A stretch of DNA of 64,000 nt, from contig CACJPC010000001.1 in assembly GCA_902595195.1 (NCBI GenBank), positions 150,654-214,653 on the forward strand, written 5' to 3'. Positions 4,297 through 58,178 of the stretch are shown piece after piece. Both the position numbers and the translations under genes were made by a program. The stretch's first letter is position 1; each line of letters opens with the position of its first letter. The notes beneath the pieces were generated by a model. That model was not told the origin of the DNA and did no database searches. It saw only the letters and a program-made list of their open reading frames with translations. The DNA is from an uncultured Candidatus Actinomarina sp. GTDB taxonomy: Bacteria > Actinomycetota > Acidimicrobiia > Actinomarinales > Actinomarinaceae.

Positions 4297-4689
4297 ATGG
4301 AGAATAAAGATTTTATAAATTGTTCAAATTGTAATCTACCTATATATCCACCTAAATTACCTAAAGGAATGAATGTAAAAGATCGGTTTGATCAAATTAG
4401 ATGTCTTGGTTGCAACACAATCAATAGCTATACACAATCTCAAGAGTATAAATTTAAATTAGTAGAAGAAAAACATTCAAATAGTGGAAGAAATAAAATT
4501 GGTCCTAGCGCTAAAACTGTAATATTGATTTGGATTATTGTTACAGTTTTAACTTCTGATTTAACTGATTTAACAGTAGGTTGGTTAATTGTTGCAGGAG
4601 TTTTAACAGTTATGTACTTTTCGAGGAATATACTGAAAAGAAAATATATTGAATTTCTTAAATATTTAGATTTTCTAAAAAAGAACTAA
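4297..4689 (+). CDS. hypothetical zinc-ribbon membrane protein
   Basis: N-terminal CSNC...x24...CLGC (C-x2-C pairs) followed by two hydrophobic helices. Lies inside the repeat-bracketed islet. Confidence 0.55.
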   Translation: MENKDFINCSNCNLPIYPPKLPKGMNVKDRFDQIRCLGCNTINSYTQSQEYKFKLVEEKHSNSGRNKIGPSAKTVILIWIIVTVLTSDLTDLTVGWLIVAGVLTVMYFSRNILKRKYIEFLKYLDFLKKN

Positions 4690-8584: not shown

Positions 8585-8637
8585 TGGGCCCTACAGGATT
8601 TGAACCTGTGACTTCTTCCTTGTAAGGGAAGCGCTCT
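8585..8637 (-). pseudogene. Truncated tRNA-Val (anticodon UAC) remnant: 3' ~53 nt only
   Basis: The reverse complement reads AGAGC G CTTCC CTTACAA GGAAG AAGTC ACAGG TTCAAAT CCTGT AGGGCCC A. That covers the D-stem 3' strand through the discriminator. The sequence where the 5' acceptor and D arm should be (8638 onward) does not fit. Confidence 0.75.
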
Positions 8638-8667
8638 TGAAATAAAATGGTGACTTTTTGGTGACTT

Positions 8668-8769
8668 TTGAAATAAAACTCCTGAAAAATGCAGTGGGCC
8701 TAGTTAGATTTGAACTAACGACCTCATCCTTATCAGGGATGCGCTCTAACCAGGCTGAGCTATAGGCCC
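8668..8769. repeat. Direct repeat copy 2 (tRNA-Ile gene plus 3' flank), partner at 4110..4211
   Basis: See copy 1. Immediately adjacent, 8638-8678 contains the scar-like word arrangement TGAAATAAAA-TGGTGACTTTTT-GGTGACTTTT-GAAATAAAA. Confidence 0.85.
8695..8769 (-). tRNA. tRNA-Ile (anticodon GAU), canonical copy
   Basis: Same cloverleaf as 4137..4211 but with the canonical anticodon loop CTGATAA (U33). No encoded CCA. Confidence 0.9.
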
Positions 8770-8857
8770 TTATGTCTAATTAACATTAGTCTATCAAAAG
8801 AAATATTTAAATTTTTTTTTCATTTACTCTCAAATTCGAGGCATAATATTAAAGCGA

Positions 8858-8930
8858 GGGGATGTAGCTCAGCTGGAAGAGCACCTGCTTTGCAAGCAGG
8901 GGGTCGTGGGTTCAAGTCCCATCATCTCCA
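8858..8930 (+). tRNA. tRNA-Ala (anticodon UGC)
   Basis: GGGGATG TA GCTC AGCTGGAA GAGC A CCTGC TTTGCAA GCAGG GGGTC GTGGG TTCAAGT CCCAT CATCTCC A. It carries the G3:U70 alanine identity pair. Confidence 0.9.
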
Positions 8931-17744: not shown

Positions 17745-17833
17745 GGAGGGATCGCATAGTCTGGCCTAGTGCGCACGCTTGGAAAGCGTGTAAGGGTTTA
17801 TCCCCTTCGAGGGTTCGAATCCCTCTCCCTCCG
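17745..17833 (+). tRNA. tRNA-Ser (anticodon GGA)
   Basis: GGAGGGA acceptor, anticodon stem-loop CACGC TTGGAAA GCGTG, long variable arm and T-arm GAGGG TTCGAAT CCCTC. Confidence 0.9.
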
Positions 17834-17847
17834 CGTAAAAACCATCT

Positions 17848-17933
17848 GGAGGGATGGCCGAGCGGACGAAGGCGATAGTCTTGAAAACTATTGTATGTAT
17901 TCCATACCGTGGGTTCGAATCCCACTCCCTCCG
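17848..17933 (+). tRNA. tRNA-Ser (anticodon UGA)
   Basis: GGAGGGA acceptor, ATAGT CTTGAAA ACTAT, long variable arm and T-arm GTGGG TTCGAAT CCCAC. Confidence 0.9.
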
Positions 17934-17940
17934 CTGACTT

Positions 17941-18027
17941 GGAGAGGTGACTGAGTGGCCTAAAGTGCTCGCCTGCTAAGCGAGTGGGGAAGAAATTCCC
18001 TCGAGGGTTCGAATCCCTCCCTCTCCG
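17941..18027 (+). tRNA. tRNA-Ser (anticodon GCU)
   Basis: GGAGAGG acceptor, CTCGC CTGCTAA GCGAG, long variable arm and T-arm GAGGG TTCGAAT CCCTC. Confidence 0.9.
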
Positions 18028-18031
18028 CAAA

Positions 18032-18105
18032 GCGCCCGTAGCTTAACTGGATAGAGCATCTGACTACGGATCAGAAGGTTGGGGGTTCGACTCCCTCCGG
18101 GCGTG
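18032..18105 (+). tRNA. tRNA-Arg (anticodon ACG; the substrate of TadA)
   Basis: GCGCCCG TA GCTT AACTGGATA GAGC A TCTGA CTACGGA TCAGA AGGTT GGGGG TTCGACT CCCTC CGGGCGT G. Confidence 0.9.
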
Positions 18106-21214: not shown

Positions 21215-22744
21215 ATGCAAGAAGCCTTATATAGAAAATACAGACCTGATAGCTTAAAAAAGCTAGTCGGACAACCTGATGCTGTTGCATTAATTGAAAA
21301 GCAAGTAAAGAATAATAATTTAAGTCATGCATATTTATTTTCTGGACCAAGGGGTGTTGGCAAAACCTCACTGGCAAGAATAATTGCTACTACTTTGGGT
21401 TGTGATCCGGTCTTTGATATAACTGAAATAGATGCAGCTTCCCACAATAAAGTTGATGACATTAGAGAATTAAACGACAGTATCAACTTTATAGCAAGCA
21501 GCCCAGGCAAAAAGAGAGTATTTATTTTAGATGAGGTACATATGTTATCTAACGCAGCTTCAAATGCATTTTTAAAAACTTTAGAGGAACCACCAGAGCA
21601 CGTGATATTCATACTTGCAACCACAGAACCTGAAAGAGTATTAGAAACTATTAAAAGCAGAACAACTCACATAGCTTTTAAAAGAATTGGGAATGATGAA
21701 ATTATAAGCACACTTAATGAGATTGGTAAAAATGAAAAAATAAAAATCAATGACGATGTCTTAAGCTATATTGCTAACCAAAGCGATGGTTCATTGCGTG
21801 ATGCAATAAATCTTTTTGAACAAACCCATAATACATTTGGTAATAAAGCAACTATCGATGACTTGTACAGTATTCTTGGAAAAGTTTCTATCGCTGATTT
21901 GCAACAAATTATTGAGTCTATAAATACACAAGACACATCCAAGATTCTAAACATTCTTAAAGCTAACTACAGCAAAGGTCTTCAGCCTTTAGATATCCTA
22001 AATTCTATTACTGAGTTATTTAGGAACATTTTTTACTTTAAATATCTGCCTGATGATGATACTTTTTTAGCTATTAGCGAAAGTGAAAACACATTAGTAA
22101 AACATTCGAATGAATTTATAACCGCCAAGCAGCTATCAAGAGTCTTAGATTTATTAGATGAACTTAACCAAACAATTGTCAATGCACCTTCTCAAGAACT
22201 AAAGTTGGAATTATTCCTCATTAAATTAATTAAACCCCAACTGGCATCTGATATAAAATCGATTTCAAGACGAGTCGACCTTTTAGAAGGTGAACAGAAC
22301 ATTCAAGAAGATGTTGTTAAAGAAATCCCTTCTTCAAAACAAACGCCTAAACCAAAACAAAATACTGAAAAAAAAACTAAAAGCACAATTAAAGCCCCAA
22401 AAAAAGATCTGGAAAATTTTGATGTATATTGGCCAAAGATACTTCAAGAAGGAAAGAACACACTTACACCTAGAAAATATTCCTATATTACTTTGGTAAG
22501 CCCCCAGATAGAAGACGAGGAAAACCTGACTCTTTATGTTGATGATGAAAATGAGTATTTAATTAATGAGTTAAAAAAATCGCAAGATATTTTGGAATTT
22601 ATTGAATCAGAAATTGCAAAAATAATGGGACTAAAAGTTTCTATACAAGTAAAGGAAGCAAAAGGCTTATCGGAAAACTCTAGTACAGAAAACAATGTTC
22701 AAGAAAATATTAGTGAAGTTTTTGATATCGAAAATATTGACTAA
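21215..22744 (+). CDS. dnaX: DNA polymerase III subunit tau (gamma/tau)
   Basis: Walker A GPRGVGKTS, DEVHMLS, sensor SRT and a Lys/Pro-rich linker after ~380 aa. Confidence 0.95.
   Translation: MQEALYRKYRPDSLKKLVGQPDAVALIEKQVKNNNLSHAYLFSGPRGVGKTSLARIIATTLGCDPVFDITEIDAASHNKVDDIRELNDSINFIASSPGKKRVFILDEVHMLSNAASNAFLKTLEEPPEHVIFILATTEPERVLETIKSRTTHIAFKRIGNDEIISTLNEIGKNEKIKINDDVLSYIANQSDGSLRDAINLFEQTHNTFGNKATIDDLYSILGKVSIADLQQIIESINTQDTSKILNILKANYSKGLQPLDILNSITELFRNIFYFKYLPDDDTFLAISESENTLVKHSNEFITAKQLSRVLDLLDELNQTIVNAPSQELKLELFLIKLIKPQLASDIKSISRRVDLLEGEQNIQEDVVKEIPSSKQTPKPKQNTEKKTKSTIKAPKKDLENFDVYWPKILQEGKNTLTPRKYSYITLVSPQIEDEENLTLYVDDENEYLINELKKSQDILEFIESEIAKIMGLKVSIQVKEAKGLSENSSTENNVQENISEVFDIENID
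22368..22380 (+). other. Candidate programmed -1 frameshift / transcriptional slippage site in dnaX (A9 run, then a -1 frame TAA)
   Basis: The zero frame reads GAA AAA AAA ACT AAA. The slippery heptamer A AAA AAA lies within 22368-22376. After a -1 shift the reading is AAC TAA (stop at 22378-22380), giving a product of about 388 aa. Confidence 0.35.
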
Positions 22745-23082
22745 TTTTCTTTAAGGTTCAATTCGCTTAAAGCGACTGTTATTCTTCGAGATCCTTGATT
22801 TTGAGCACTTTTACACAACTCTATAAAACTTCTTAACTCTCCAGTTCTGAATTTTTTTAGTTCGTCTCCAGGCTCAACTTTTGTGTTTCTTTCTCTTTCA
22901 AGTAATTTTATCTCTATTTCTTTAGCTCTCGCCAGATATGTACTGCTAACTTCAAAAAGCGTATCAACCCCATCTGCAATAGGGGGGTTAATATGCCCCA
23001 TTAACACATCTATATAATTGTTTATTTCCTCGTGCAATTCTTGTGCACTGGATAGACCTTTTTTTAATGGAAATTTTTGCAT
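22741..23082 (-). CDS. hypothetical protein (113 aa), translationally coupled to murJ
   Basis: TAATG overlap with the murJ stop. Soluble, charged and predicted helical. No family recognised. Confidence 0.55.
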   Translation of the reverse strand: MQKFPLKKGLSSAQELHEEINNYIDVLMGHINPPIADGVDTLFEVSSTYLARAKEIEIKLLERERNTKVEPGDELKKFRTGELRSFIELCKSAQNQGSRRITVALSELNLKEN

Positions 23083-31735: not shown

Positions 31736-33826
31736 TTATAGTTTTCTTGATGAATTCAAAACTACGGAAATGCTTGATAGTGCCATGGCTAAAGCTGCTA
31801 AATTTGGAGTAATTACCCCAGACACAGCCAATGGAATCATTGAGGTGTTGTAAACAAAAGCAAGGAATAGATTTTGATAAATTCTACTTTTAGATTTTTT
31901 TGATAATTTAAAAATTTCAGAAATTGTATCTAAACCGCCCTTGTGAATTAAAATATCACCAGCTACTTGTGCTATTTGACTACTACTAGAGGTAGTTATA
32001 CCAATATCCGCTTGTTTTATTGAAGGGGAATCATTTACTCCATCTCCAACATAAATAATTTTTTCTTCTAGTTGTTTATTTTTAATAAAGTCTAACTTTT
32101 CTTCTGGAGATTTATTTGAATGATATTTGTCCACCCCAATACTTTTAGCAAACTTTTCAACATTTACTTCTTTATCTCCAGAGAGAATAATTATTTCTTT
32201 TTCATCTTTCAGTATATTTAAGAAATTTGACGATACGGATACCTCTTCTTCTAAGTAAAGGTCAATTTTTTGCTCGTCAATTTTAACAATGATTGAAGAC
32301 TCGTTAGAGTCTTCATTTTTTTCAATTAAAACTTTTTTCTCATCAACTATACCTTGTATCCCCAAGCCAGGAACTTCCTTGACATTATCAGCTTTAAGCA
32401 ACTTCAAATCTCGTAATTCTGCTTCATAAACAATACTTCTTGCAATCGGATGCTGAGAATAGCTTTCAAGACTTGCAATAATTTGTAAAATTGTATTTTC
32501 CGTTAGAGCTGTATTATTGTCGATCTTTGATATTTTAAAAATACCAGAAGAAAGGGTACCTGTTTTATCAAAAATAAGAGTATTTATATCACCAAATTTT
32601 TGCAAAATATCAAAATTTTTGAATAAGTATCCCTGTTTCTTACTGAGAGTTGCAGTCTTAAACAAAACTATTGGAGTTGCTAAGCCTAATGCACAAGGAC
32701 ATGCAATCACCAAAACTGCTATTGAATTTTTTAAGGCATCTAATAATGTGAAATCGCTTATGAAGAATCTAAATAGGAAAGTTAGAAGACTAATAAAAAG
32801 AACAACTGGAACGAAGTATTGAGTTACTTTGTCCAATGATTTTTGAATCTCTGGTTTAGTTGCTTGAGCCGTTCTAATTAATTCTTCAATTATGTTGTAG
32901 GTAGATTTTTGATAAGACTCTTGGACAGAGACTTTTATTGCACCATCTAAATTTATACTTCCACCTACAACTAAGTCCCTAGGATTTTTAACTAGAGGAA
33001 TTGACTCTCCAGTTAATAGACTTTCATCAACGGTTGTTGAACCTTCTAAAACAACACCATCAACAGGAATAATCTCTCCAGGGCTTACTTTAAATAAATC
33101 ACCAATTGCAACCTCTTTAATAGGTACTTCAAGATGTTCCCCACCTCTTTCCACAATTAAAGTTTTAGGCATTCTGCTTTTTATTGATTCAGATTCATTT
33201 ACGGATTCCTCTATAACCTTATCTTCTATTGCTTTACCAATTAAGATAAATGAAACTATGAAAGCCCCGGTATCTAGGAACATTTTATTATTTGTGATTG
33301 ATAAATCAGAGCCTAGGACAGTGCTTGGTAACAATGAAATAATAAGCGCACTCAAGCTACCGATTGAAATTAGAGTATCCATATTAAAATCAAAAAATTT
33401 AATTTTTTTAAAAGCAGAAATATGAAAATTTCTACCAAGTATCAAGATAACAAAAGAGCCTATTGCATAAGATAAGATATCTAGCCCAGCCTCAAATGTA
33501 AATCTGAGAATGTAAGTAAGAAACAATGAAAATAAAGGTATTAAAAATTTAAATCTAACTTTACTACCTGAACTAAGGCTGTCTGCTTCTTTTGCCTTAT
33601 AGCCAATAGTGTTTACTTTTTTAATTAAATTATCAACATCAAATTCATCATTATTTTTAATGTCAACAATTGCAGACTTTAAAGGAAAGCTTACAGATAC
33701 GTCTAGGACATCTTCTTGTTTTGAAATTACTCGTTCTATCCGTGCAGCACATGCAGCACATGTCATGCCCTCGATGTCTAAATTTAAAGTATTATTCTGA
33801 CTGGACAACTGTGTAGCCTTGTTCAT
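31736..33826 (-). CDS. copA: copper-translocating P1B-type ATPase
   Basis: N-terminal HMA GMTCAACAARIE, TGES, the CPC motif (ACPCALGLATP), DKTGTL and GDGVNDSP. Confidence 0.95.
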   Translation of the reverse strand: MNKATQLSSQNNTLNLDIEGMTCAACAARIERVISKQEDVLDVSVSFPLKSAIVDIKNNDEFDVDNLIKKVNTIGYKAKEADSLSSGSKVRFKFLIPLFSLFLTYILRFTFEAGLDILSYAIGSFVILILGRNFHISAFKKIKFFDFNMDTLISIGSLSALIISLLPSTVLGSDLSITNNKMFLDTGAFIVSFILIGKAIEDKVIEESVNESESIKSRMPKTLIVERGGEHLEVPIKEVAIGDLFKVSPGEIIPVDGVVLEGSTTVDESLLTGESIPLVKNPRDLVVGGSINLDGAIKVSVQESYQKSTYNIIEELIRTAQATKPEIQKSLDKVTQYFVPVVLFISLLTFLFRFFISDFTLLDALKNSIAVLVIACPCALGLATPIVLFKTATLSKKQGYLFKNFDILQKFGDINTLIFDKTGTLSSGIFKISKIDNNTALTENTILQIIASLESYSQHPIARSIVYEAELRDLKLLKADNVKEVPGLGIQGIVDEKKVLIEKNEDSNESSIIVKIDEQKIDLYLEEEVSVSSNFLNILKDEKEIIILSGDKEVNVEKFAKSIGVDKYHSNKSPEEKLDFIKNKQLEEKIIYVGDGVNDSPSIKQADIGITTSSSSQIAQVAGDILIHKGGLDTISEIFKLSKKSKSRIYQNLFLAFVYNTSMIPLAVSGVITPNLAALAMALSSISVVLNSSRKL

Positions 33827-34001
33827 CTAACAGTTGAGAAACATTCATCATGTCTAAATCAGAAGATGAGATAACTTCAACAGATTTTTCCTCAATATCA
33901 ACTGAAACGCTTTCTATTGATTCAACATTATTTAATGTAGATTCAATCGTATCCTTACAATGACCACAACTGATTTCAGGAACTGTAAATACAACATTCA
34001 T
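33792..34001 (-). CDS. copZ: copper chaperone CopZ (HMA domain)
   Basis: MNVVFTVPEISCGHCKDTIE (C-x2-C metal site). I prefer ATG 34001 over TTG 34010. Overlaps the copA start by 35 nt. Confidence 0.85.
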   Translation of the reverse strand: MNVVFTVPEISCGHCKDTIESTLNNVESIESVSVDIEEKSVEVISSSDLDMMNVSQLLDEQGYTVVQSE

Positions 34002-34033
34002 AATTATCAATATTAATACTTGGCGGGCTATAA

Positions 34034-34061
34034 ATAAGCCCCTAATTTCTTAGGGGCTTAT
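34034..34061 (-). terminator. GC-rich 12-bp hairpin (ATAAGCCCCTAA-tttc-TTAGGGGCTTAT) between the CCCH gene and copZ: terminator/attenuator candidate
   Basis: Perfect 12-bp stem with a 4-nt loop, followed on the transcribed (minus) strand by UUAU AGCC, a weak U tract. It is conspicuously GC-rich in an AT-rich context. Confidence 0.35.
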
Positions 34062-34063
34062 AA

Positions 34064-34085
34064 GAAATCTCTTGGGGGAGATTTC
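34064..34085 (-). other. Second hairpin (GAAATCTC-ttgggg-GAGATTTC) in the copZ leader
   Basis: Perfect 8-bp stem with a 6-nt loop. It is flanked at 34087-34093 by a second TTAGGGG that could pair with CCCCTAA of hairpin 34034..34061 instead. Confidence 0.3.
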
Positions 34086-34105
34086 GTTAGGGGGGTCTTT
34101 AAAAC

Positions 34106-34300
34106 TTAAGCAGTTTCTTGTAGAATTCTGCCTCTAACTCTAGGATATTTCACAGGAGCATGATTGAAGCAGTGATCTCTCTTGTTATAAATACTTAATT
34201 GAGTACTACAAGATTCATCTTTGCACACTCTGCCCTGGTCAAAACTCTTTGATGGCCTAATTCCGCCCTTTATTTGACTCGCTTTTAATCCGTCTGTCAT
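34106..34300 (-). CDS. small C-X4-C-X12-C-X2-H protein (64 aa), unrecognised family; paralog of 57919..58119
   Basis: MTDGLKASQIKGGIRPSKSFDQGRVCKDESCSTQLSIYNKRDHCFNHAPVKYPRVRGRILQETA. About 55-60% identical by eye to the 66-aa paralog, with all four Cys/His ligand positions and the YPRVRG tail conserved. AAGGA Shine-Dalgarno upstream. Confidence 0.7.
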   Translation of the reverse strand: MTDGLKASQIKGGIRPSKSFDQGRVCKDESCSTQLSIYNKRDHCFNHAPVKYPRVRGRILQETA

Positions 34301-34318
34301 TTTATTCCTTTATATACT

Positions 34319-34336
34319 TTGTGAATATATTCACAA
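34319..34336. promoter_or_regulatory. Perfect CRP/GlxR-type site tTGTGA-ATATAT-TCACAa
   Basis: 18-bp perfect palindrome centred about 27 nt upstream of the ATG at 34300. It matches the TGTGA-N6-TCACA consensus of the CRP/FNR family exactly. Confidence 0.55.
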
Positions 34337-34365
34337 GCTTAACATAAATATTTTAGAATACAATT

Positions 34366-52968: not shown

Positions 52969-54120
52969 TTAACTAACAAATATATAGGTAAGCTTTCTCC
53001 AAAGCCACTCTAAGGGCCCAAACTTGAAGACTTCCAATATGCGTTTGGACCAAAAGTATTGTAGAAAAACAATTGTGATTACATAAAGTATCAATTCCGA
53101 CCTAGTAAATTGACCTTTTGTGAAAACTAAATTTAATACGAAGAGACTCAGTAGTGTCTGTGATATATAGTTTGTAAAAGCCATCCTGCCACAAGCTCTG
53201 ATTCTTTGAGCAAAAAGATTATTTCTAGAATTTATTATGGTTAATAAGCCAATGTATCCACATACCATAGGAATTATCGAGATAGTATTAAAAAACCTAC
53301 TTGGTAAAAATGTAGAAGCTGCATAGTTTCCAGAAATTAAGAGGTAGGATCCGTATGCAGCAAAAGGAATTCCTATTCCAAATCCATAGTAAAAAAATTT
53401 TTTATAGAATAGTGTATTTTTATTGCCTTGAAAGATATTCAAACGATAAAGAAGCATACCAAAAATCATTAAGGCAAGTGCTCTAATGAAACCGTCAGCT
53501 AAGACCCATAAAGCAATTATATTCCCTATGCCTTCAGTCTCGGGAAACCATAATTTTCCAAAGCTTTTACTTCCACCTTTGCTAAATAATTCAATCCAAA
53601 TTCCTTCTCCAATTAAAAAACCATTTTCATCATATAAGCTGTTAACTGATTGTGTTATATAAAGCAATCCTGAGAAAATAAATGCAGTTATAGCTGATAA
53701 AATCTTTGTGTTTTCTATTTTTACAATTTGAGTAAGAATTATAAAGATTGAACAAATTGCATATGCAGTAAGAATATCTCCTTCCCATAGAAAAAAATGA
53801 GCAATACCAAAAAAAAGTAAAAGCGAGTTTCTCCATAAAGATAGTATTAAAGGCTTACTTGTTTTGCCTTTCGCTCTTTCGTAAAAAATTACCATGCCCG
53901 CACCAAAAAGAGCTGAGAATAACCCCATCATTTTACTATCAAAAAATACTGCAGAAATTACTATCACTATCCAGTCCAGTAGATTTTCCACACCGTAGCT
54001 CAAGTGATTCATATATGCACTATCAGGTAATCCAAATGAAACAACATTCATCACCAATATTCCCATAAGTGCGATGCCTCTTATGAAGTCAAGATTTGTA
54101 ATTCTTTGAGCTGAATTCAT
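52969..54120 (-). CDS. DUF418/DUF1624 (YeiB-like) membrane protein
   Basis: RITNLDFIRGIALMGILVMNV N-terminus and C-terminal GPLEWLWRKLTY. Start trimmed to ATG 54120, because the longer ORF would overlap hspR by 113 nt with Lys-rich filler. Confidence 0.75.
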   Translation of the reverse strand: MNSAQRITNLDFIRGIALMGILVMNVVSFGLPDSAYMNHLSYGVENLLDWIVIVISAVFFDSKMMGLFSALFGAGMVIFYERAKGKTSKPLILSLWRNSLLLFFGIAHFFLWEGDILTAYAICSIFIILTQIVKIENTKILSAITAFIFSGLLYITQSVNSLYDENGFLIGEGIWIELFSKGGSKSFGKLWFPETEGIGNIIALWVLADGFIRALALMIFGMLLYRLNIFQGNKNTLFYKKFFYYGFGIGIPFAAYGSYLLISGNYAASTFLPSRFFNTISIIPMVCGYIGLLTIINSRNNLFAQRIRACGRMAFTNYISQTLLSLFVLNLVFTKGQFTRSELILYVITIVFLQYFWSKRILEVFKFGPLEWLWRKLTYIFVS

Positions 54121-54136
54121 TTCAGCAAAAGTATAA

Positions 54137-54520
54137 CTATCTTCGTATGGATTTATCTGACTTTTTAACGATTTCGTTTCTGTAACTTTTGTGAATTTCT
54201 TTTTCTTTATTTTTAGAGTCAATTTTTTGATTTGAAATCTCATTCTCAAGCAAGAGAATTTTATTTTGTAGTTCTTCTATTTTGTCTTTCATTTCGTAAA
54301 TAATTTTTATTCCATCTAAATTAATTCCCCTTTGAGAAAGGTTTTGAATTTGAATTAATTTATCGATGTCTTCTTGAGAGTATCGTCTTGTACCACCACC
54401 AGTTCTATATGGTTTTATTAAGCCTTTCATTTCATATGTCCTAATAGTTTGTTGATGAATCCCAGACAAGCTTGAGGCTACAGAAATAAAATATATTGCT
54501 TTTGAATCTTCGTTACTCAT
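54137..54520 (-). CDS. hspR: MerR-family heat-shock repressor HspR
   Basis: HTH block YFISVASSLSGIHQQTIRTYEMKGLIKPYRTGGGTRRYSQEDIDKL and position as the last gene of the dnaK operon. ATGAGTAA-type overlap with the dnaJ stop (start ATG 54520). Confidence 0.85.
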   Translation of the reverse strand: MSNEDSKAIYFISVASSLSGIHQQTIRTYEMKGLIKPYRTGGGTRRYSQEDIDKLIQIQNLSQRGINLDGIKIIYEMKDKIEELQNKILLLENEISNQKIDSKNKEKEIHKSYRNEIVKKSDKSIRR

Positions 54521-55598
54521 ACAAATAATCCCTTGGGGAATCTCCAGACTCAAATTGATCTCTATAGTTTTCTAGATGTTTTTTTGCAGACCTTGATAAA
54601 TTTGTTGGAGGGGTTATGTAAACTTTTACAAATAAATCTCCAGGCCTTCTGCCTTGCGGAGCAATTCCCTCACCTTTTATTTTGAACGTTTTACCACTTG
54701 GAGTACCTGCAGGAACTTTTAATGTTACAGATTTTTCAAGCGTTGGTATTTTTACACTTGCACCAAGAGCAGCCTCTGTAAATAGCAAAGGAACTTCAAG
54801 AATAAGATCACTGTTACTTCTCTTAAAAAATTTGTGTGGTTCAACAGCAACTTGAACTAATAAATCTCCATCTGGCGCACCCGCATCCCCAGGACCTCCT
54901 CTTCCACGTAATCTAATCACTGTTCCATTATCAACTCCTGCAGGCACTTTTACTTTTATAGATTCATTTTCAACAACAGAACCAGAACTCCTACATGTTT
55001 TACATGCTTTATCAATAACATTTCCTTGACCCTTACAGGCAGAACAAGTTTGTGCAAAAGAAAAAAAACCTTGATTAGAGGCAGTTTGTCCACTTCCGTT
55101 GCAAATGTTACATCTATGAAACGCCTCTCCTTTATCAGCTCCAGTGCCTTTACAAGCCGAACAAGCAACTTCTTTACGTAGAGGTATTACAGTTTCTACG
55201 CCCTTAGCTGCTTCATCAAAAGATATGTTTATATTTGTTTGATATGTCTGGCCTTTTCTTCTTCCACCAGAGCCTCCAAATCCAAAAATATCACCTAAAT
55301 TTCCAAACAAGTCACCAAAATCGTCTACATTGAATCCCTGACCACCAAAGCCTCCAAAACCCGAAGCTCCCATTGCACGTACTTGATCGTATTCTTGTCT
55401 TTTTCTTTCATCTCCCAAAACTGAGCTTGCTTCTGAAATTTCTTTGAATTTCTTTTCTGCTTCTGTATCACCTGGATTTAAATCTGGGTGATTTTCTCTG
55501 GCTAATTTTTTATACGCTTTTTTTATATCTTCGGTGCTAGCATCTTTTGAGACACCTAGTGTGGCGTAAAAATCCTTGTCTAACCAGTCCCTACTCAC
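54513..55598 (-). CDS. dnaJ: chaperone DnaJ
   Basis: J domain with HPD (NHPDLNPGD), a G/F region and four CxxCxGxG repeats. Confidence 0.95.
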   Translation of the reverse strand: MSRDWLDKDFYATLGVSKDASTEDIKKAYKKLARENHPDLNPGDTEAEKKFKEISEASSVLGDERKRQEYDQVRAMGASGFGGFGGQGFNVDDFGDLFGNLGDIFGFGGSGGRRKGQTYQTNINISFDEAAKGVETVIPLRKEVACSACKGTGADKGEAFHRCNICNGSGQTASNQGFFSFAQTCSACKGQGNVIDKACKTCRSSGSVVENESIKVKVPAGVDNGTVIRLRGRGGPGDAGAPDGDLLVQVAVEPHKFFKRSNSDLILEVPLLFTEAALGASVKIPTLEKSVTLKVPAGTPSGKTFKIKGEGIAPQGRRPGDLFVKVYITPPTNLSRSAKKHLENYRDQFESGDSPRDYLYE

Positions 55599-56091
55599 TT
55601 TTAACTTTTACCATTGCAGGGCGAATTAATTTACCTTGAAATAGATAACCTTTTCTTAAGATTGTTTCAACTACTTGAGTTTCTCCCTCTCCCGAATGCT
55701 CAACAGCCTCATGCATAGAGGGATCAAAATTTTCTCCAATAGTTCCAATTTCTTCAACCTGCAGACCCTCTAAAACTGAAGTTAGAAGGTTGTTGAAAGT
55801 TTCAAGTTCTTCTGAAACTTCTTCTTGATTCATAGCCATATCAAAGTTATCGATTAGTGGGAAAAGAGAGTTAACAAAATAAGCAACAGATGCTGCACTT
55901 ATACTTTCTTTTTCTTTTTCAGTTCTCTTTTTGAAATTATCAAATTCTGCAGCAAGTCTTAGATAGTCGTCTTTTATTTTTTCATATTGTGAAAGAGGTA
56001 CTGAAGTTTCTTCATTTACATTTTTCTCATCTAAAGATTCTCCAGAAGTATTATCTACTTCCTCAATCAAAGACTCTTCTTCTTTACTCAT
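55591..56091 (-). CDS. grpE: nucleotide exchange factor GrpE
   Basis: [12 protein letters not shown] and the C-terminal GY..GK.IRPAMV pattern. Confidence 0.9.
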
Positions 56092-57892
56092 CCTCTACAA
56101 CTTCACCTTCAACTACGTCATCTGACTCATCTGAAGATGGATTAGCTGTGTCATTTTGAGCTTCCGCGTATAATTTCTCGGCAAATGATTGACTGGCTTT
56201 TGCAAGTTCATCAATACCATTTTTCAAATCATCAATCGATAATTCTTCATTCTCTAAAAGTTTTTTCAGTTTATCGTTTGCATCATTGATTGCTGTTACC
56301 TCTTCATCTGTTGCCTTGTCTTTATTTTCTTCCAACATTTTTTCAGTTGAGGTAACCATACCTTCAGCCATGTTTCTGGTTTCAATAAGCTCTTTCTTTT
56401 TTGCATCTTCATTAGCATGCTGTTCAGCATCTTTTATCATTCTTTCGATTTCATCATCTTCAAGTGCTGTACCGCCAGTAATTGTTATTGCTTGTTCTTT
56501 ACCAGTTCCTAGATCTTTAGCATTGACATTCACAATACCATTAGCATCGATATCAAAAGTTACCTCTATTTGAGGTGTACCAGCCATTGCTGCAGGTATA
56601 TCAGTTAATGTGAATCTTCCTAGGGACTTATTCCCAGAAGCCATTTCTCTCTCACCTTGCAAGATATGGATTTCAACCTGGGTTTGATTGTTTTCAGCCG
56701 TACTAAATACTTCAGACCTTTTAGTTGGAATTGTTGTATTTCTTTCAATCATTTTGGTCATGATTCCACCTTTAGTTTCAACACCCAAAGTAAGAGGTGT
56801 AACATCTAATAAAAGAACATCTTTTACATCACCTTTTAGTACTCCAGCTTGAATAGCAGCTCCAGATGCAACAACTTCATCAGGATTAACACCTTTATGA
56901 GGGTCTTTACCAGTAAGAGATTTTACAAGTTGTTGGACTGATGGCATTCGAGTCGAACCACCAACTAATATGACATGATCGATATCAGAAAATTTCATTC
57001 CAGCATCAGACAATGCATTTTCGACTGGTTCTTTAGTTCTTTCTACTAAATCTGCAGTAATTTTTTCAAACTCAGATCTACTTAATTTTTCAAGCAAATG
57101 TTGAGGTCCAGCATCATTAGCAGTAATGAATGGCAAGTTAATTTCTGTTTCGCTGGTAGATGAAAGTTCAATCTTAGCTTTTTCTGCAGCTTCTTGAACT
57201 CTCTGAATTGCCATTTTATCATTTGATAAATCAATTCCAGTTGAGGATTTAAACTTTTCAATTAACCAGTCCATTACTCTTTGGTCCCAGTCATCTCCAC
57301 CAAGCTTAGAATCTCCTGATGTTGACTTTACTTCGAACACACCCTCAGAAATTTCTAATATAGAAACATCAAAAGTACCACCACCTAAATCAAATACGAG
57401 TATTTTTTGATCTTCATTGTTTTCTAGCCCGTATGAAAGGGATGCAGCAGTAGGTTCATTTATAATTCTTAAGACATTCAATCCTGCGATTTGACCGGCC
57501 TCTTTCGTTGCTTGCCTTTCAGCATCATTAAAATATGCTGGAACAGTAATTACAGCATCTGTAACGTCGTCGCCTAAATATGACTCAGCATCTCTTTTGA
57601 GTTTTTGTAATATTCTTGCAGATATTTCTTGAGGTGTATAGTCTTTACCTTCAAAGCTTTCTTTCCAATTTGTTCCAATATGTCTTTTGATAGATCTAAC
57701 AGTGTTATCCGGATTTGTTACCGCTTGTCTTTTTGCAAGTTCACCAACTAGAACTTCTTCTGATTTAAAAGCAACAATAGAAGGTGTTGTTCTATTTCCC
57801 TCTGCGTTAGCAATAACAGTTGGCTCACCACCTTCAAGCACTGCTACAACACTGTTTGTTGTTCCCAAATCAATTCCTACAGCCTTACCCAT
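56084..57892 (-). CDS. dnaK: chaperone DnaK (Hsp70)
   Basis: [23 protein letters not shown] and [11 protein letters not shown] signatures. Confidence 0.98.
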
Positions 57893-57918
57893 CTTGTATA
57901 TTTCCTTTCATAAAATTA

Positions 57919-58119
57919 TTAAATTGGTTCCTGCTCTCTCGGCAAATGTCCTCTTACTCTTGGATAGGAGATAGGAGCATGCAGAAAGCAAAATTTCTTT
58001 TTGTTATAAACACTAATTACAGTCTCACAAGCTTCAAATGCGCAAACTCTACCAGTGGTATATTTTTTTGATCTTCTAACACCTGGCTTAACTTGTGAGG
58101 CAGTTAATGTTCCGCTCAT
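57919..58119 (-). CDS. small C-X4-C-X12-C-X2-H protein (66 aa), first gene of the dnaK operon; paralog of 34106..34300
   Basis: MSGTLTASQVKPGVRRSKKYTTGRVCAFEACETVISVYNKKKFCFLHAPISYPRVRGHLPREQEPI. Its stop is only 26 nt upstream of the dnaK ATG on the same strand. AAGGAAGG Shine-Dalgarno upstream. Confidence 0.7.
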   Translation of the reverse strand: MSGTLTASQVKPGVRRSKKYTTGRVCAFEACETVISVYNKKKFCFLHAPISYPRVRGHLPREQEPI

Positions 58120-58154: not shown

Positions 58155-58178
58155 AATCTAAGTATAAATACTTAGATT
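58155..58178. promoter_or_regulatory. Inverted repeat AATCTAAGTA-taaa-TACTTAGATT upstream of the CCCH-dnaK operon (candidate HspR operator, HAIR-like in position)
   Basis: 10-bp perfect arms, 36-59 nt upstream of ATG 58119. A TATAAT (minus strand, 58138-58143) lies between it and the Shine-Dalgarno, so the repeat sits where a -35 would be. Confidence 0.5.

What the first reader, a model, noticed from the sequence alone, without database searches (positions are those of the whole stretch)
34106..34300. Second CCCH small-protein paralog heads the copZ-copA copper-efflux locus, which lacks any recognisable copper regulator
The 64-aa paralog of the dnaK-operon leader protein lies directly upstream of copZ-copA on the same strand. 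No CsoR, CopY or CueR-type gene is present next to the cop genes. This paralog carries extra His residues around the last ligands (DHCFNHAP versus KFCFLHAP). It has a perfect palindromic site in its own upstream region and is separated from copZ by two strong hairpins. Together with the dnaK-linked copy, this looks like a small family of stress-operon leader proteins. A role as a metal-sensing regulator or metallochaperone is a hypothesis only.
Basis: inference. Interest (0 to 1): 0.65.

Follow-up and report, generated by a model that had tools for sequence, protein, structure and literature searches.

The report
Stress-linked zinc mini-protein beside copper pump
The small gene in front of the copper-export genes is real, extremely conserved and very highly expressed. 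It belongs to an unnamed family of one-zinc mini-proteins tied to heat and oxidative-stress operons, and it sits next to the copper genes because this marine bacterium deleted the normal copper repressor that lies between them in its relatives.

Summary
A 64-aa ORF lies at 34106-34300 on the minus strand, 53% identical to the first gene of the dnaK operon. An 18-bp perfect palindrome lies upstream, two hairpins lie before copZ-copA, and the window has no copper regulator.

The Cys3His signature (C-x4-C-x12-C-x2-H...PRxRG) defines an unannotated family: about 950 clusters, with no significant Pfam, NCBIfam or PDB match. It occurs in Acidimicrobiia, other Actinomycetota and phage contigs.

In 24 of 25 informative non-Actinomarina loci the orthologue sits upstream of csoR-copZ-copA. 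There it has its own sigmaH/sigmaE-type promoter, and a terminator-like hairpin follows it in the loci inspected. csoR keeps its own GC-rich operator-like palindrome. All 56 Actinomarina species genomes simply lack csoR, so the protein coexists with CsoR rather than replacing it.

Other paralogs head dnaK operons (69 of 75 loci). Others form the third gene of ECF-sigma/zinc anti-sigma operons, or sit beside OsmC and a disulfide reductase.

Marine metatranscriptomes show a very abundant transcript that drops at hairpin B and reads through into copZA at a lower level.

Best reading: a stress-regulon zinc mini-protein whose biochemical function is unknown, not a dedicated copper regulator.

The parts
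34106..34300 (-). 64-aa Cys3His mini-protein gene, the cop-linked paralog. Ligand candidates are C26, C31, C44 and H47, followed by a C-terminal YPRVRGR motif. Predicted pI is 9.7.
   Evidence: ORF and translation. Family signature with invariant R24, C26, C31, Y38, C44, H47, G57. pN/pS 0.035. Very high RNA depth. pI.
34336..34363 (-). Inferred sigma70-type promoter: -35 TTGTAT (34358-34363), 16-nt spacer, extended -10 TGtTAAGCT (34336-34344). It starts directly after the stop codon of the M3 peptidase gene.
   Evidence: A conserved TTGCAT/TTGCCA, 16-17 nt, TA(A/T)(G/C/T)CT arrangement is seen in all 56 Actinomarina loci. The 5' end of an RNA contig at 34328 lies 8 nt downstream of the -10. 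The promoter is inferred, not mapped.
34319..34336 (.). Perfect 18-bp palindrome TTGTGAATATATTCACAA, whose core is TGTGA-N6-TCACA. It straddles the predicted transcription start, so it is either an operator-like site or a 5'-terminal stem of the mRNA.
   Evidence: It is invariant in 55 of 57 copies, and the two variants change only the central N6. It occurs nowhere else in 2.0 Mb of held sequence.
34064..34085 (-). Hairpin A in the 3' UTR: GAAATCTC-CCCCAA-GAGATTTC. The C-rich loop is nearly invariant, and a C-run precedes the hairpin.
   Evidence: The stem is kept through G-U wobble changes that pair only on this strand.
34026..34061 (-). Hairpin B (12-bp stem ATAAGCCCCTAA/TTAGGGGCTTAT, 34034-34061) plus a U-rich tail (34026-34033). 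This is a leaky intrinsic terminator between the mini-protein gene and copZ.
   Evidence: Compensatory changes occur in 4 stem pairs across 27 distinct sequences. A high-depth RNA contig ends at 34031 while a DNA contig runs through. Read-through contigs also exist.
33792..34001 (-). copZ, an HMA-domain copper chaperone. There is no Shine-Dalgarno sequence, and a conserved TATTA(A/T)-like box lies 6-13 nt before the ATG, so a leaderless start is possible.
   Evidence: Spacer alignment.
31736..33826 (-). copA, a copper-type P1B ATPase.
   Evidence: TIGR01511, 431 bits.
57919..58119 (-). dnaK-linked paralog (66 aa), the first gene of the operon paralog-dnaK-grpE-dnaJ-hspR (54137-58119).
58155..58178 (.). 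Inverted repeat AATCTAAGTAT-tt-ATACTTAGATT just downstream of a TTGCAT/TATCTT promoter. It resembles the HspR operator (HAIR) and is probably the HspR site for the dnaK operon.
   Evidence: The arms are invariant and the spacer is variable across about 75 loci. hspR is present in the operon.

Best explanation
**What it is.** The gene encodes an abundant, basic, 64-residue protein predicted to hold one zinc through Cys3His. It belongs to an undescribed family of Actinomycetota (and their phages) whose members are wired into the heat and thiol-oxidative stress circuits.

**Ancestral layout (shown).** In Acidimicrobiia the arrangement is [sigmaH/sigmaE-type promoter, mini-protein gene, terminator-like hairpin] followed by [promoter with a CsoR-operator-like palindrome, csoR-copZ-copA].

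**What changed in Actinomarina (shown).**
- csoR and its operator were lost.
- The ECF-type promoter is replaced by a sigma70-type promoter with an invariant palindrome at the start site.
- copZA now lies 49-105 nt downstream.

**Transcription in this window (shown).** The gene is transcribed at very high level. Most transcripts stop at hairpin B and a minority read through into copZA.

**Inferred.**
- copZA may also have a leaderless promoter of its own, so it would be expressed without a dedicated copper sensor at this locus.
- Protein mechanism: the Zn(Cys3His) centre acts as a thiol-reactive switch, sensitive to oxidants and to thiophilic metals. It would change how the protein binds a conserved partner in the proteostasis or gene-expression machinery. 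This would be comparable in chemistry to Ruc, Hsp33 and the RsrA-type anti-sigma factors. On this reading the copper neighbourhood reflects shared thiol stress or inherited synteny, not copper-specific regulation.
For: **Gene and family**
- The gene is under strong purifying selection: pN/pS 0.035, and 100% protein identity in genomes where CopA is 52% identical.
- The family has 951 representatives at E <= 0.001, with fixed spacing C-x4-C-x12-C-x2-H-x5-PRxRG.
- It has no significant Pfam, NCBIfam, PHROG or PDB match.

**Synteny**
- 24 of 25 informative non-Actinomarina loci have mini-protein, csoR, copZ, copA in that order. All 56 Actinomarina loci lack csoR.
- In relatives a terminator-like hairpin and a GC palindrome of the form CCCCACCCC-GGTGGGG precede csoR.

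**Stress wiring**
- GGAA[C/G]-N17-CGTT lies upstream of the orthologue exactly in 18 of 25 loci, and near-exactly in the other 7. Background is 0.009 matches per 110 nt.
- This equals the sigmaH/sigmaE consensus GGAAC-N17-18-cGTT reported for dnaK, dnaJ2, clgR and sigB in C. glutamicum (PMC10012870). It also fits GGAAYR-N17-GTT in M. tuberculosis (PMC4803200).
- Paralog contexts: head of the dnaK operon in 69 of 75 loci; ECF sigma, zf-HC2 anti-sigma, mini-protein in two diverged lineages; OsmC plus a disulfide oxidoreductase.

**Expression**
- RNA contig depth over the gene versus copZA versus the upstream peptidase gene was 7395 / 87 / 22, 1693 / 185 / 17 and 2705 / 411 / 34-55 in three runs.
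- DNA runs show at most about 1-5 fold excess over the gene.

**Terminator**
- Hairpin B shows covariation, and a high-depth RNA contig ends at 34031.
- Read-through contigs span 33617-34328 and 33639-34153.
Against: - The protein-level mechanism is entirely inferred. No assay, no structural homologue and no partner are known.
- AlphaFold gives only a zinc-knuckle-like core without secondary structure (pLDDT 71 for the whole protein, 81.5 for the core).
- Every position, tails included, is conserved. The invariant basic residues (R15, K18, R24, PRxRG) fit a tight nucleic-acid or machine-binding role better than a loose holdase.
- Adjacency to cop genes persists even where the upstream flank changes (L001 and about 20 Actinomarina loci without the M3 peptidase). 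A real copper link is therefore not excluded.
- I could not scan a whole Actinomarina genome for CsoR, CopY, CueR, ArsR, Crp or an ECF sigma.
- Contig depth is a crude measure of expression, and the 5' end is not mapped. Contig breaks at 34309-34311 are also present in DNA runs, so they are strain-variation artefacts.
Confidence: 0.5

Rival explanations
1. The mini-protein is a nucleic-acid-binding or machine-associated factor. It could be a transcription factor or RNA-polymerase accessory protein in the manner of RbpA or WhiB7, a ribosome-associated protein, or an RNA chaperone. The zinc would be structural, and the basic N-terminus and PRxRG(R/H) tail would be the binding surfaces. It would be produced in bulk and boosted under stress.
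For: - pI is 9.7-10, with 12 Lys+Arg in 64-66 residues.
- Basic positions and the PRxRG motif are invariant across about 130 diverse members.
- Conservation is near-total (pN/pS 0.035), as seen in components of large complexes.
- Transcript abundance rivals dnaK.
- Phage-encoded homologues exist.
- A weak profile match (E = 0.52) points to the C3H zinc site of the plant SBP DNA-binding domain, with a shared LS-x-Y-(N/H)-(K/R)(K/R)...C-x2-H-(A/S) motif.
Against: - No significant homology to any DNA- or RNA-binding domain was found.
- The orthologues with ECF-type promoters show no operator-like palindrome upstream, so autoregulation through DNA binding is not a family trait.
- The genomic contexts are chaperone, protease and redox genes rather than transcription or translation genes.
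Confidence: 0.28
2. In csoR-less Actinomarina the mini-protein has become the copper sensor or a copper chaperone for copZA. It might act through the palindrome at its own promoter, which also drives read-through into copZA.
For: - Linkage with cop genes is conserved across the class, even when flanking genes differ.
- No csoR lies within 8 kb in any of 56 Actinomarina genomes, nor within the 64-kb window.
- RNA contigs link the gene to copZ and copA.
- In clades with a 49-65-nt spacer and no hairpins the three genes look like one operon.
- A Cys3His site could bind Cu(I).
Against: - The same protein (59-67% identical, all motif residues the same) coexists with CsoR in 24 of 25 relatives, and in the loci inspected a terminator-like hairpin separates it from the cop promoter.
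- Paralogs sit in dnaK and sigma/anti-sigma operons unrelated to copper.
- The highlighted His43 is not conserved.
- There is no CsoR, HMA, CopY or MerR domain.
- The palindrome has the Crp/FNR form TGTGA-N6-TCACA, not any known copper-regulator box.
- Expression is far above what repressors usually need.
Confidence: 0.1
3. The adjacency has no functional meaning. The mini-protein is a housekeeping or stress gene, and it sits beside the cop genes only because the block M3 peptidase, mini-protein, csoR-copZA, PAC2 is frozen synteny in Acidimicrobiia.
For: - The M3 peptidase gene upstream and the PAC2 gene downstream have no known copper role, yet they are conserved in the same block in L003, L069-L092 and most Actinomarina loci.
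- An M3 peptidase is again adjacent, in convergent orientation, to a distant family member that has no cop genes.
Against: - The pairing with cop genes survives loss or replacement of the upstream peptidase (L001, L002, L084 and 23 Actinomarina loci).
- In Actinomarina the gene now supplies read-through transcription to copZA.
Confidence: 0.12

Closest known systems
Ruc (Rv0991c) of Mycobacterium tuberculosis, a redox-regulated zinc-binding chaperone (PMC7448276)
   Same: - Both are small zinc-cysteine proteins predicted or shown to be largely unstructured.
- Ruc is induced by SigH and repressed by a heat-shock repressor.
- Its gene is found in dnaK/grpE/dnaJ loci in many phyla, and the protein binds DnaK.
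- The present family has the sigmaH/sigmaE-type promoter, sits at the head of an HspR-type dnaK operon and inside sigma/anti-sigma operons.
   Different: - No sequence relationship was detected.
- Ruc uses four cysteines; this family has Cys3His with C-x4-C-x12-C-x2-H spacing.
- This family is shorter than Ruc (64 versus about 110 aa; the Ruc length is from my own knowledge).
- This family is far more conserved along its whole length, and strongly basic.
- Chaperone activity is untested.
ZAS anti-sigma factors (RsrA/RshA), the thiol-switch partners of SigR/SigH
   Same: - The zinc ligand set is three Cys plus one His (established knowledge for RsrA).
- The regulon is the same.
- Family members are encoded directly after a zf-HC2 anti-sigma gene in one operon.
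   Different: - The defining H-x3-C-x2-C motif is absent, and there is no PF13490 match.
- The protein is far too short for the anti-sigma helical domain.
- It is encoded in addition to a bona fide ZAS protein.
CsoR (PF02583) copper repressor
   Same: Only position. The gene lies upstream of copZ-copA, where csoR sits in relatives.
   Different: - No PF02583 match, no helical bundle and no C-H-C copper site.
- It coexists with a true csoR in 24 of 25 relatives.
Eukaryotic C-x4-C...C-x2-(H/C) zinc knuckles: the SBP-domain C3H site, the CHORD domain of the HSP90 co-chaperone RAR1, and the A20-type finger
   Same: - Ligand spacing and several flanking residues are nearly the same: R-x-C-x4-C, a hydrophobic residue, N-x4-C-x2-H-(A/G)-P.
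- These are the best, though non-significant, hits by profile and by fold.
   Different: - E-values are 0.4-10, so homology is not established.
- SBP and CHORD domains bind two zinc ions through eight ligands, whereas this family has four.
- The loop is 4 residues shorter than in SBP.
Crp/GlxR-type operator (TGTGA-N6-TCACA)
   Same: The palindrome core matches the consensus perfectly, and the only variation among 57 copies falls in the N6 spacer.
   Different: - It sits at the transcription start, which is a repressor or 5'-stem position rather than an activator position.
- No second site occurs in 2.0 Mb of held sequence.
- Whether the genome has a Crp-family protein could not be checked.

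Membership tests
CsoR / PF02583 copper-sensing repressor | Match to the Trns_repr_metal profile; about 100-aa all-helical protein | tested here: not met
   No Pfam or NCBIfam hit at E <= 1, and none for 36 members at E <= 10. The AlphaFold model has no helices.
CsoR / PF02583 copper-sensing repressor | It is the only regulator at the cop locus, so the mini-protein should be mutually exclusive with csoR | tested here: not met
   It coexists with csoR in 24 of 25 informative loci.
HMA-type copper chaperone (CopZ) | PF00403 fold with an MxCxxC motif | tested here: not met
   No PF00403 match and no CxxC in the sequence. The true CopZ is the next gene.
CopY or CueR/MerR copper regulators | Winged-helix (Penicillinase_R) or MerR helix-turn-helix domain | tested here: not met
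   No such domain in the mini-protein or in the neighbours tested. The only MerR-family protein found in the window is HspR.
Ruc-type redox chaperone | N-terminal four-cysteine zinc site | tested here: not met
   Only 3 Cys, with Cys3His spacing C-x4-C-x12-C-x2-H. No zinc-ribbon family was hit.
Ruc-type redox chaperone | SigH-type promoter and linkage to dnaK loci | tested here: met
   GGAAC-N17-CGTT upstream of the orthologue in relatives. The paralog heads the dnaK operon in 69 of 75 loci.
Ruc-type redox chaperone | Zinc release on oxidation activates holdase activity; binds DnaK | not testable with these tools
   Needs purified protein.
ZAS anti-sigma factor | H-x3-C-x2-C motif and zf-HC2 profile | tested here: not met
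   The motif is absent and there is no PF13490 hit. A separate zf-HC2 protein is encoded just upstream in L007-L009 and L194-L196.
WhiB-like (Wbl) proteins | Four Cys binding an Fe-S cluster; PF02467 match | tested here: not met
   Three Cys only and no Pfam hit.
Intrinsic terminator (hairpin B) | GC-rich stem kept by compensatory changes, a U-rich tail, and a drop in RNA after it | tested here: met
   12-bp stem. Four pairs have double changes and the wobble changes fit this strand only. The tail is TTATTTAT. A high-depth RNA contig ends at 34031 while a DNA contig runs on. It is leaky, because read-through contigs exist.
CsoR operator (as an alternative reading of hairpin B) | Short GC-rich pseudo-palindrome of the CCCC-N3-4-GGGG type next to the cop promoter, conserved as a DNA sequence | tested here: not met
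   Relatives have CCCCACCCC(C)GGTGGGG before csoR. Hairpin B has CCCC-N10-GGGG, varies by compensatory and wobble changes, and is absent from half of the Actinomarina clades.
Crp/FNR-type binding site (palindrome) | TGTGA-N6-TCACA with a free central spacer | tested here: met
   Perfect match. Variation in 2 of 57 copies falls only within N6.
Crp/FNR-type binding site (palindrome) | A Crp-family protein in the genome and further regulon sites | tested here: inconclusive
   There is no other site in 2.0 Mb held, but that covers only about 90 kb of unique genome.
6C RNA or FourU thermometer (for the C-rich hairpin A and the 5' palindrome) | Rfam covariance-model match | tested here: not met
   6C gives no hit. 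FourU scores 17.9 bits against a gathering score of 60 (E = 0.72).

The most novel reading that the evidence does not exclude
An unrecognised, phylum-specific Zn(Cys3His) mini-protein family is a core effector of the actinobacterial sigmaH/HspR stress response. It would be a thiol- and Cu(I)-labile switch that docks onto a central machine (DnaK, RNA polymerase or the ribosome). In the genome-streamlined Actinomarina its promoter would have taken over transcription of copZA after CsoR was lost, so copper export would be driven by a general stress or housekeeping signal rather than by a copper sensor.
Probability: 0.3. Interest if true: 0.75.

Novelty: new variant of a known kind. Interest (0 to 1): 0.58.

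Why it matters
**Why the organism matters.** Candidatus Actinomarina is, from general knowledge, one of the smallest and most abundant free-living marine bacteria.

**Why the gene matters.** It is one of the most conserved and most transcribed genes in this window, yet it has no name, no domain and no literature. The family has about 950 diverged clusters and consistently sits in sigmaH/anti-sigma, dnaK and redox neighbourhoods, so it is a good candidate for a missing component of actinobacterial stress biology. The protein is small enough for quick biochemical testing.

**What the locus shows about streamlining.** The dedicated copper repressor was deleted. The efflux genes were left behind a leaky terminator of a strong neighbouring promoter.

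It removes the attractive but unsupported notion of a new copper regulator replacing CsoR.

Tried and rejected
1. **Domain and structure searches.** The protein was scanned against Pfam, NCBIfam and PHROGs, singly and as 36 members. Only sub-threshold noise appeared: zf-CGNR E = 0.048, CxC6 E = 0.0095, one PHROG of unknown function.
2. **PDB sequence search.** Nothing significant. The best hits were RAR1 CHORD (E = 0.42) and an SBP domain (E = 0.52), kept only as motif-level leads.
3. **AlphaFold plus Foldseek.** The whole protein and the trimmed core gave no match at E <= 0.001 against PDB or BFVD. BFVD returned only uncharacterised phage proteins that look like homologues of the knuckle.
4. 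**Hairpin B as a CsoR operator.** Rejected, because of RNA-type covariation, the U-tail, and its absence from half of the clades.
5. **Hairpins as a repeated REP or MITE element.** Rejected: there is a single copy in the window.
6. **Hairpin A plus C-runs as a 6C-type small RNA, and the 5' palindrome as a FourU thermometer.** No Rfam support.
7. **Contig breaks at 34309-34311 as the transcription start.** Rejected, because DNA runs break at the same place, so this is strain variation.
8. **Very high RNA depth as an artefact of summing strains over a conserved gene.** Largely rejected, since DNA runs show only about 1-5 fold excess.
9. **Palindrome as part of a wider Crp regulon.** No second site was found, but the unique sequence available is small.
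10. **Cultured-phage search (INPHARED, tblastn).** No match.
11. **Literature searches for the family or the locus.** Nothing relevant beyond the SigH/SigE promoter papers and the Ruc paper.
12. **First genome-collection scan with the most diverse alignment.** It failed for lack of a conserved stretch. A narrower alignment worked, but it is biased toward the cop-linked subfamily.
Full report
**1. What is at the coordinates**

The window is low in G+C (30-37%). Its closest relatives are Candidatus Actinomarina genomes of the class Acidimicrobiia.

- **ORF.** At 34106-34300 on the minus strand lies a 64-codon ORF with an ATG start and an AAGGA ribosome-binding site. Its product is MTDGLKASQIKGGIRPSKSFDQGRVCKDESCSTQLSIYNKRDHCFNHAPVKYPRVRGRILQETA.
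- **Paralog.** It is 53% identical (E = 4e-26) to the 66-aa product of 57919-58119(-). That gene directly precedes dnaK-grpE-dnaJ and a MerR-family hspR.
- **Downstream genes.** On the same strand follow copZ (HMA domain) and copA (copper-type P1B ATPase).
- **Palindrome.** TTGTGAATATATTCACAA at 34319-34336 is perfect. It contains the only perfect TGTGA-N6-TCACA in 64 kb.
- **Hairpins.** Two hairpins lie in the 105-nt spacer before copZ, with stems of 8 and 12 bp. The folding z-score is -5.0.
- **No copper regulator.** No CsoR is found by tblastn in the window, and the neighbouring genes carry no regulator domain.

**2. It is a real and unusually constrained gene**

A scan of one genome per species returned 56 Actinomarina loci and 24 other Acidimicrobiia loci.

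| Protein (within Actinomarina) | Identity to the window (summarised) |
|---|---|
| Mini-protein | 89-100% (median 97%) |
| CopZ | 48-99% |
| CopA | 45-99% |
| M3 peptidase | 53-98% |

Synonymous differences average 0.53 per site and non-synonymous differences 0.019, giving pN/pS of 0.035. For copZ the non-synonymous value is 0.28. In some genomes the protein is 100% identical while CopA is only 52% identical (L014).

**3. The family**

- **Size.** Word-indexed searches found only close relatives. An exhaustive profile search found 951 cluster representatives at E <= 0.001, mostly 60-80 aa.
- **Signature.** R-x-C-x4-C-x3-(L/I)-S-x-Y-N-x4-C-x2-H-x5-P-R-x-R-G. R24, C26, C31, Y38, C44, H47 and G57 are invariant. 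The spacing is fixed in 268 of 272 sequences checked.
- **Annotation.** Every source calls the members hypothetical. Named sources are Acidimicrobiia or unclassified Actinomycetota metagenome-assembled genomes.
- **Database matches.** There is no Pfam, NCBIfam or PDB sequence match of significance.
- **Predicted structure.** AlphaFold2 gives a compact knuckle without regular secondary structure (pLDDT 71 for the whole protein, 81.5 for residues 18-60). Foldseek finds nothing significant in PDB. In BFVD it finds only uncharacterised phage proteins that share the knuckle.
- **Weak leads.** The best non-significant profile hits are the CHORD domain of the HSP90 co-chaperone RAR1 (E = 0.42) and the C3H zinc site of plant SBP DNA-binding domains (E = 0.52). 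Both share the C-x4-C...N-x4-C-x2-H-(A/G/S) pattern. I treat these as leads only.
- **Composition.** Both window proteins have exactly three Cys and two His, and a pI of 9.7-10.

**4. The decisive comparison: relatives still have csoR**

- **Gene order.** In 24 of the 25 non-Actinomarina loci with enough downstream sequence, the order is mini-protein, csoR (PF02583), copZ, copA. It is often flanked by the same M3 peptidase upstream and PAC2 gene downstream as in the window.
- **Separate units in relatives.** In the loci read in full, the mini-protein gene ends with a GC-rich hairpin. csoR is then preceded by a palindrome of the form CCCCACCCC(C)GGTGGGG. From my own knowledge, this resembles characterised CsoR operators of actinobacteria.
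- **Actinomarina.** All 56 loci go straight from the mini-protein to copZ. No csoR lies within 8 kb on either side.
- **Conclusion.** But it coexists with the canonical regulator rather than replacing it. Actinomarina has lost csoR.
- **His43.** In csoR-containing relatives it is H, Y or F. It is therefore not a new ligand.

**5. Regulation points to stress, not copper**

*Cop-linked orthologue outside Actinomarina.* Upstream of the orthologue, 18 of 25 loci have GGAA(C/G)-N17-CGTT, 27-39 nt before the start codon. The other seven differ by one base. Background is 0.009 matches per 110 nt. This is the promoter type recognised by the stress sigma factors SigH and SigE. In C. glutamicum GGAACA-N16-CGTT drives dnaK, dnaJ2, clgR and sigB (PMC10012870). 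In M. tuberculosis the SigH consensus is GGAAYR-N17-GTT, and the regulon includes dnaK and Rv0991c (PMC4803200).

*Other family members.*
- Some are the third gene of an operon encoding an ECF sigma factor and a zf-HC2 (ZAS) anti-sigma factor. This occurs in two diverged lineages (L007-L009 and L194-L196). One has an upstream GGGAAT-N17-CGTT promoter, only 22-31 nt separate the genes, and a terminator follows the mini-protein gene.
- The dnaK-linked type is followed by DnaK within 200 nt in 69 of 75 loci. It is preceded by a promoter and an inverted repeat with invariant arms (ATCTAAGT-N6-ACTTAGAT). This resembles the HspR operator, and hspR is in the operon.
- One member follows OsmC and a pyridine-nucleotide disulfide oxidoreductase, and converges on an M3 peptidase.
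- Two members have unrelated neighbours.
- Several are on phage contigs, in a tail module, near lysis genes, or next to a portal gene.

**6. The Actinomarina version of the locus**

- **Promoter.** None of the 56 loci has the ECF-type promoter. All have a sigma70-like TTG(C/T)AT, a 16-17-nt spacer and TGtTA(A/T)nCT. The 18-bp palindrome follows immediately. In the window these elements lie at 34358-34363, 34336-34344 and 34319-34336.
- **Palindrome.** It is identical in 55 of 57 copies, and the two variants change only the central six bases. This is the pattern expected for a dimeric Crp/FNR-type DNA site. Its position across the predicted start site suits a repressor. It would also form a 5'-terminal stem in the mRNA, and I cannot distinguish the two. 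No second site exists in the 2.0 Mb I hold, which covers only about 90 kb of unique genome.
- **Spacer to copZ.** It comes in two forms. About half of the clades, including the window, have about 100 nt with hairpins A and B. The others have 49-65 nt with no hairpin.
- **Hairpin B.** It keeps its stem through compensatory changes (for example U-A in 11 and A-U in 10 sequences at one pair, and G-C to A-U at another). It also keeps G-U changes that pair only on the sense strand. A U-rich tail follows, so it is an RNA terminator.
- **Hairpin A.** It has a nearly invariant CCCCCA loop of unknown role. It matches no Rfam family.
- **copZ start.** copZ has no Shine-Dalgarno sequence in any genome. 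A conserved TATTA(A/T)-like box lies 6-13 nt before its ATG, so a leaderless promoter is possible. This is inferred.

**7. Transcripts in the sea**

Eight public marine metatranscriptomes hold this sequence as assembled contigs. Depths below are assembler word depths.

| Run | Mini-protein gene | copZ/copA | Upstream M3 peptidase gene |
|---|---|---|---|
| X1 | 7395 | 87 | 22 |
| X4 | 1693 | 185 | 17 |
| X8 | 2705 | 411 | 34-55 |
| X14 | 111 | 32 | 29 |
| X10 | 34 | 6 | 1-5 |
| X2 | 18 | 4 | 3 |

- **Control for strain summing.** In four DNA metagenomes the same comparison gives only about 1-5 fold. The RNA excess is therefore expression, not summing of strains over a conserved gene.
- **Comparison with dnaK.** The depth is of the same order as dnaK and the dnaK-linked paralog in the same runs.
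- **Termination.** A high-depth RNA contig ends at 34031, three bases past hairpin B, where DNA contigs run on.
- **Read-through.** Termination is incomplete. Contigs of intermediate depth bridge the gene, the spacer, copZ and the first 200 nt of copA (33617-34328 in X5; 33639-34153 in X8; 33908-34310 in X7).
- **5' end.** The X5 contig begins at 34328, 8 nt after the predicted -10 box.
- **Caveats.** Contig depth is a crude measure. Contig breaks at 34309-34311 are strain-variation artefacts, because DNA runs show them too.

**8. Best explanation and its limits**

*Shown.*
- The gene is real, strongly constrained and abundantly transcribed.
- The family is new to the domain databases.
- Its members are embedded in sigmaH/sigmaE-, HspR- and redox-linked units.
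- The cop adjacency is ancestral and included csoR, and Actinomarina lost csoR.
- In this window the gene is the strong promoter-proximal part of a unit that leaks into copZA.

*Inferred.*
- The Cys3His site binds zinc.
- It acts as a thiol-reactive switch, comparable in chemistry to Ruc, Hsp33 or RsrA. Ruc is a small zinc protein induced by SigH, linked to dnaK loci, binding DnaK and activated by oxidation (PMC7448276).
- copZA in Actinomarina runs without a dedicated copper sensor at this locus.

*Points that favour the nucleic-acid or machine-binding rival.* The near-total conservation of every residue, the invariant basic positions and the presence in phages favour it. I give it 0.28, against 0.5 for the stress-switch reading as a whole.

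It has no positive evidence beyond position, and I give it about 0.1.

**9. Novelty**

No paper in the searchable library describes the family or the locus. It is best filed as a new variant of a known kind: small zinc-thiolate proteins of the actinobacterial heat and oxidative-stress regulons. It shows no detectable homology to the known examples.

Noticed in passing
window 34064-34100 (minus strand): Hairpin A has a nearly invariant C-rich loop (CCCCCA). An unpaired run of 5-8 C precedes it, and the left arm of hairpin B adds a third CCCC tract. Three C-tracts in a 33% G+C genome are conserved in about half of the Actinomarina clades. They match no Rfam family (6C and others), and their role is unknown.
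   Followed up: partly
L010 6001-6192; L097 4917-5297; L102 4968-5132; L098-L113: Family members occur on phage contigs. One lies between tail genes and the tape-measure gene, beside a SET-domain-like ORF. One lies just before a portal gene, as a 126-aa form with an extra C-terminal CxxC region. One lies after lysis-type genes, as a 54-aa form lacking the PRxRG tail. None has a PHROG annotation or a hit in cultured phages.
   Followed up: partly
L007 5195-6198; L008; L009; L194-L196 5139-6201: An operon of ECF sigma factor, zf-HC2 anti-sigma factor and mini-protein lies upstream of a Zincin_2 metallopeptidase, tilS, hpt and ftsH or folate genes. It is conserved in two diverged actinobacterial lineages. 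In L007 it has a GGGAAT-N17-CGTT promoter upstream of the sigma gene.
   Followed up: partly
window 54137-54520 (minus strand): hspR (MerR family) overlaps the stop codon of dnaJ. Its 3' end overlaps the long ORF 52969-54249 as called from its first possible start, so that membrane-protein ORF probably starts further downstream.
   Followed up: no
window 58155-58178 and L114-L191: The putative HspR operator has arms ATCTAAGT/ACTTAGAT separated by 6 variable bases. The classical HAIR, as I recall it, is CTTGAGT-N7-ACTCAAG. A deeper clade (L004, L168, L179, L185) has CTTAGTG-N5-CACTAAG instead.
   Followed up: partly
L074 8190-8740: In one relative about 550 nt lie between the mini-protein gene and csoR. 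This stretch contains several copies of a ~100-nt repeat (cgggcggacttccgcc...ggcggaacag...), so a repeat element has inserted between the two units.
   Followed up: no
L192 about 1640-1750; L193 about 2020-2130: Two distant homologues (54-59% identity) are preceded by short tandem repeats: aaaattgtttctc four times and ctgctcact six times. They are not followed by dnaK.
   Followed up: no
L197 2433-6502: A distant family member follows OsmC and a pyridine-nucleotide disulfide oxidoreductase, and overlaps the end of a convergent M3 peptidase gene. The M3 peptidase is therefore a recurrent neighbour in two different orientations. A different zinc peptidase (Zincin_2) is the neighbour in the sigma/anti-sigma context.
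   Followed up: no
L083 and L087: In two relatives the cop operon next to the mini-protein looks decayed. L083 has only a CopA fragment and no csoR or copZ. L087 has partial csoR and CopA matches. The mini-protein gene itself is intact in both.
   Followed up: no
window 4297-4689 (+) and 22741-23082 (-): Two further small ORFs have no Pfam match. The first (130 aa) carries two CxxC pairs (CSNC...CLGC).
   Followed up: no
window 17745-18105 and 8591-8930: Two tRNA clusters are present, with four and four genes. One tRNA, at 8591-8646, only just reaches the gathering score.
   Followed up: no
window 33617-33640: In two metatranscriptomes the intermediate-depth contigs that cover copZ end about 190-210 nt inside copA. 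This could be strain variation or a processing or attenuation point.
   Followed up: no
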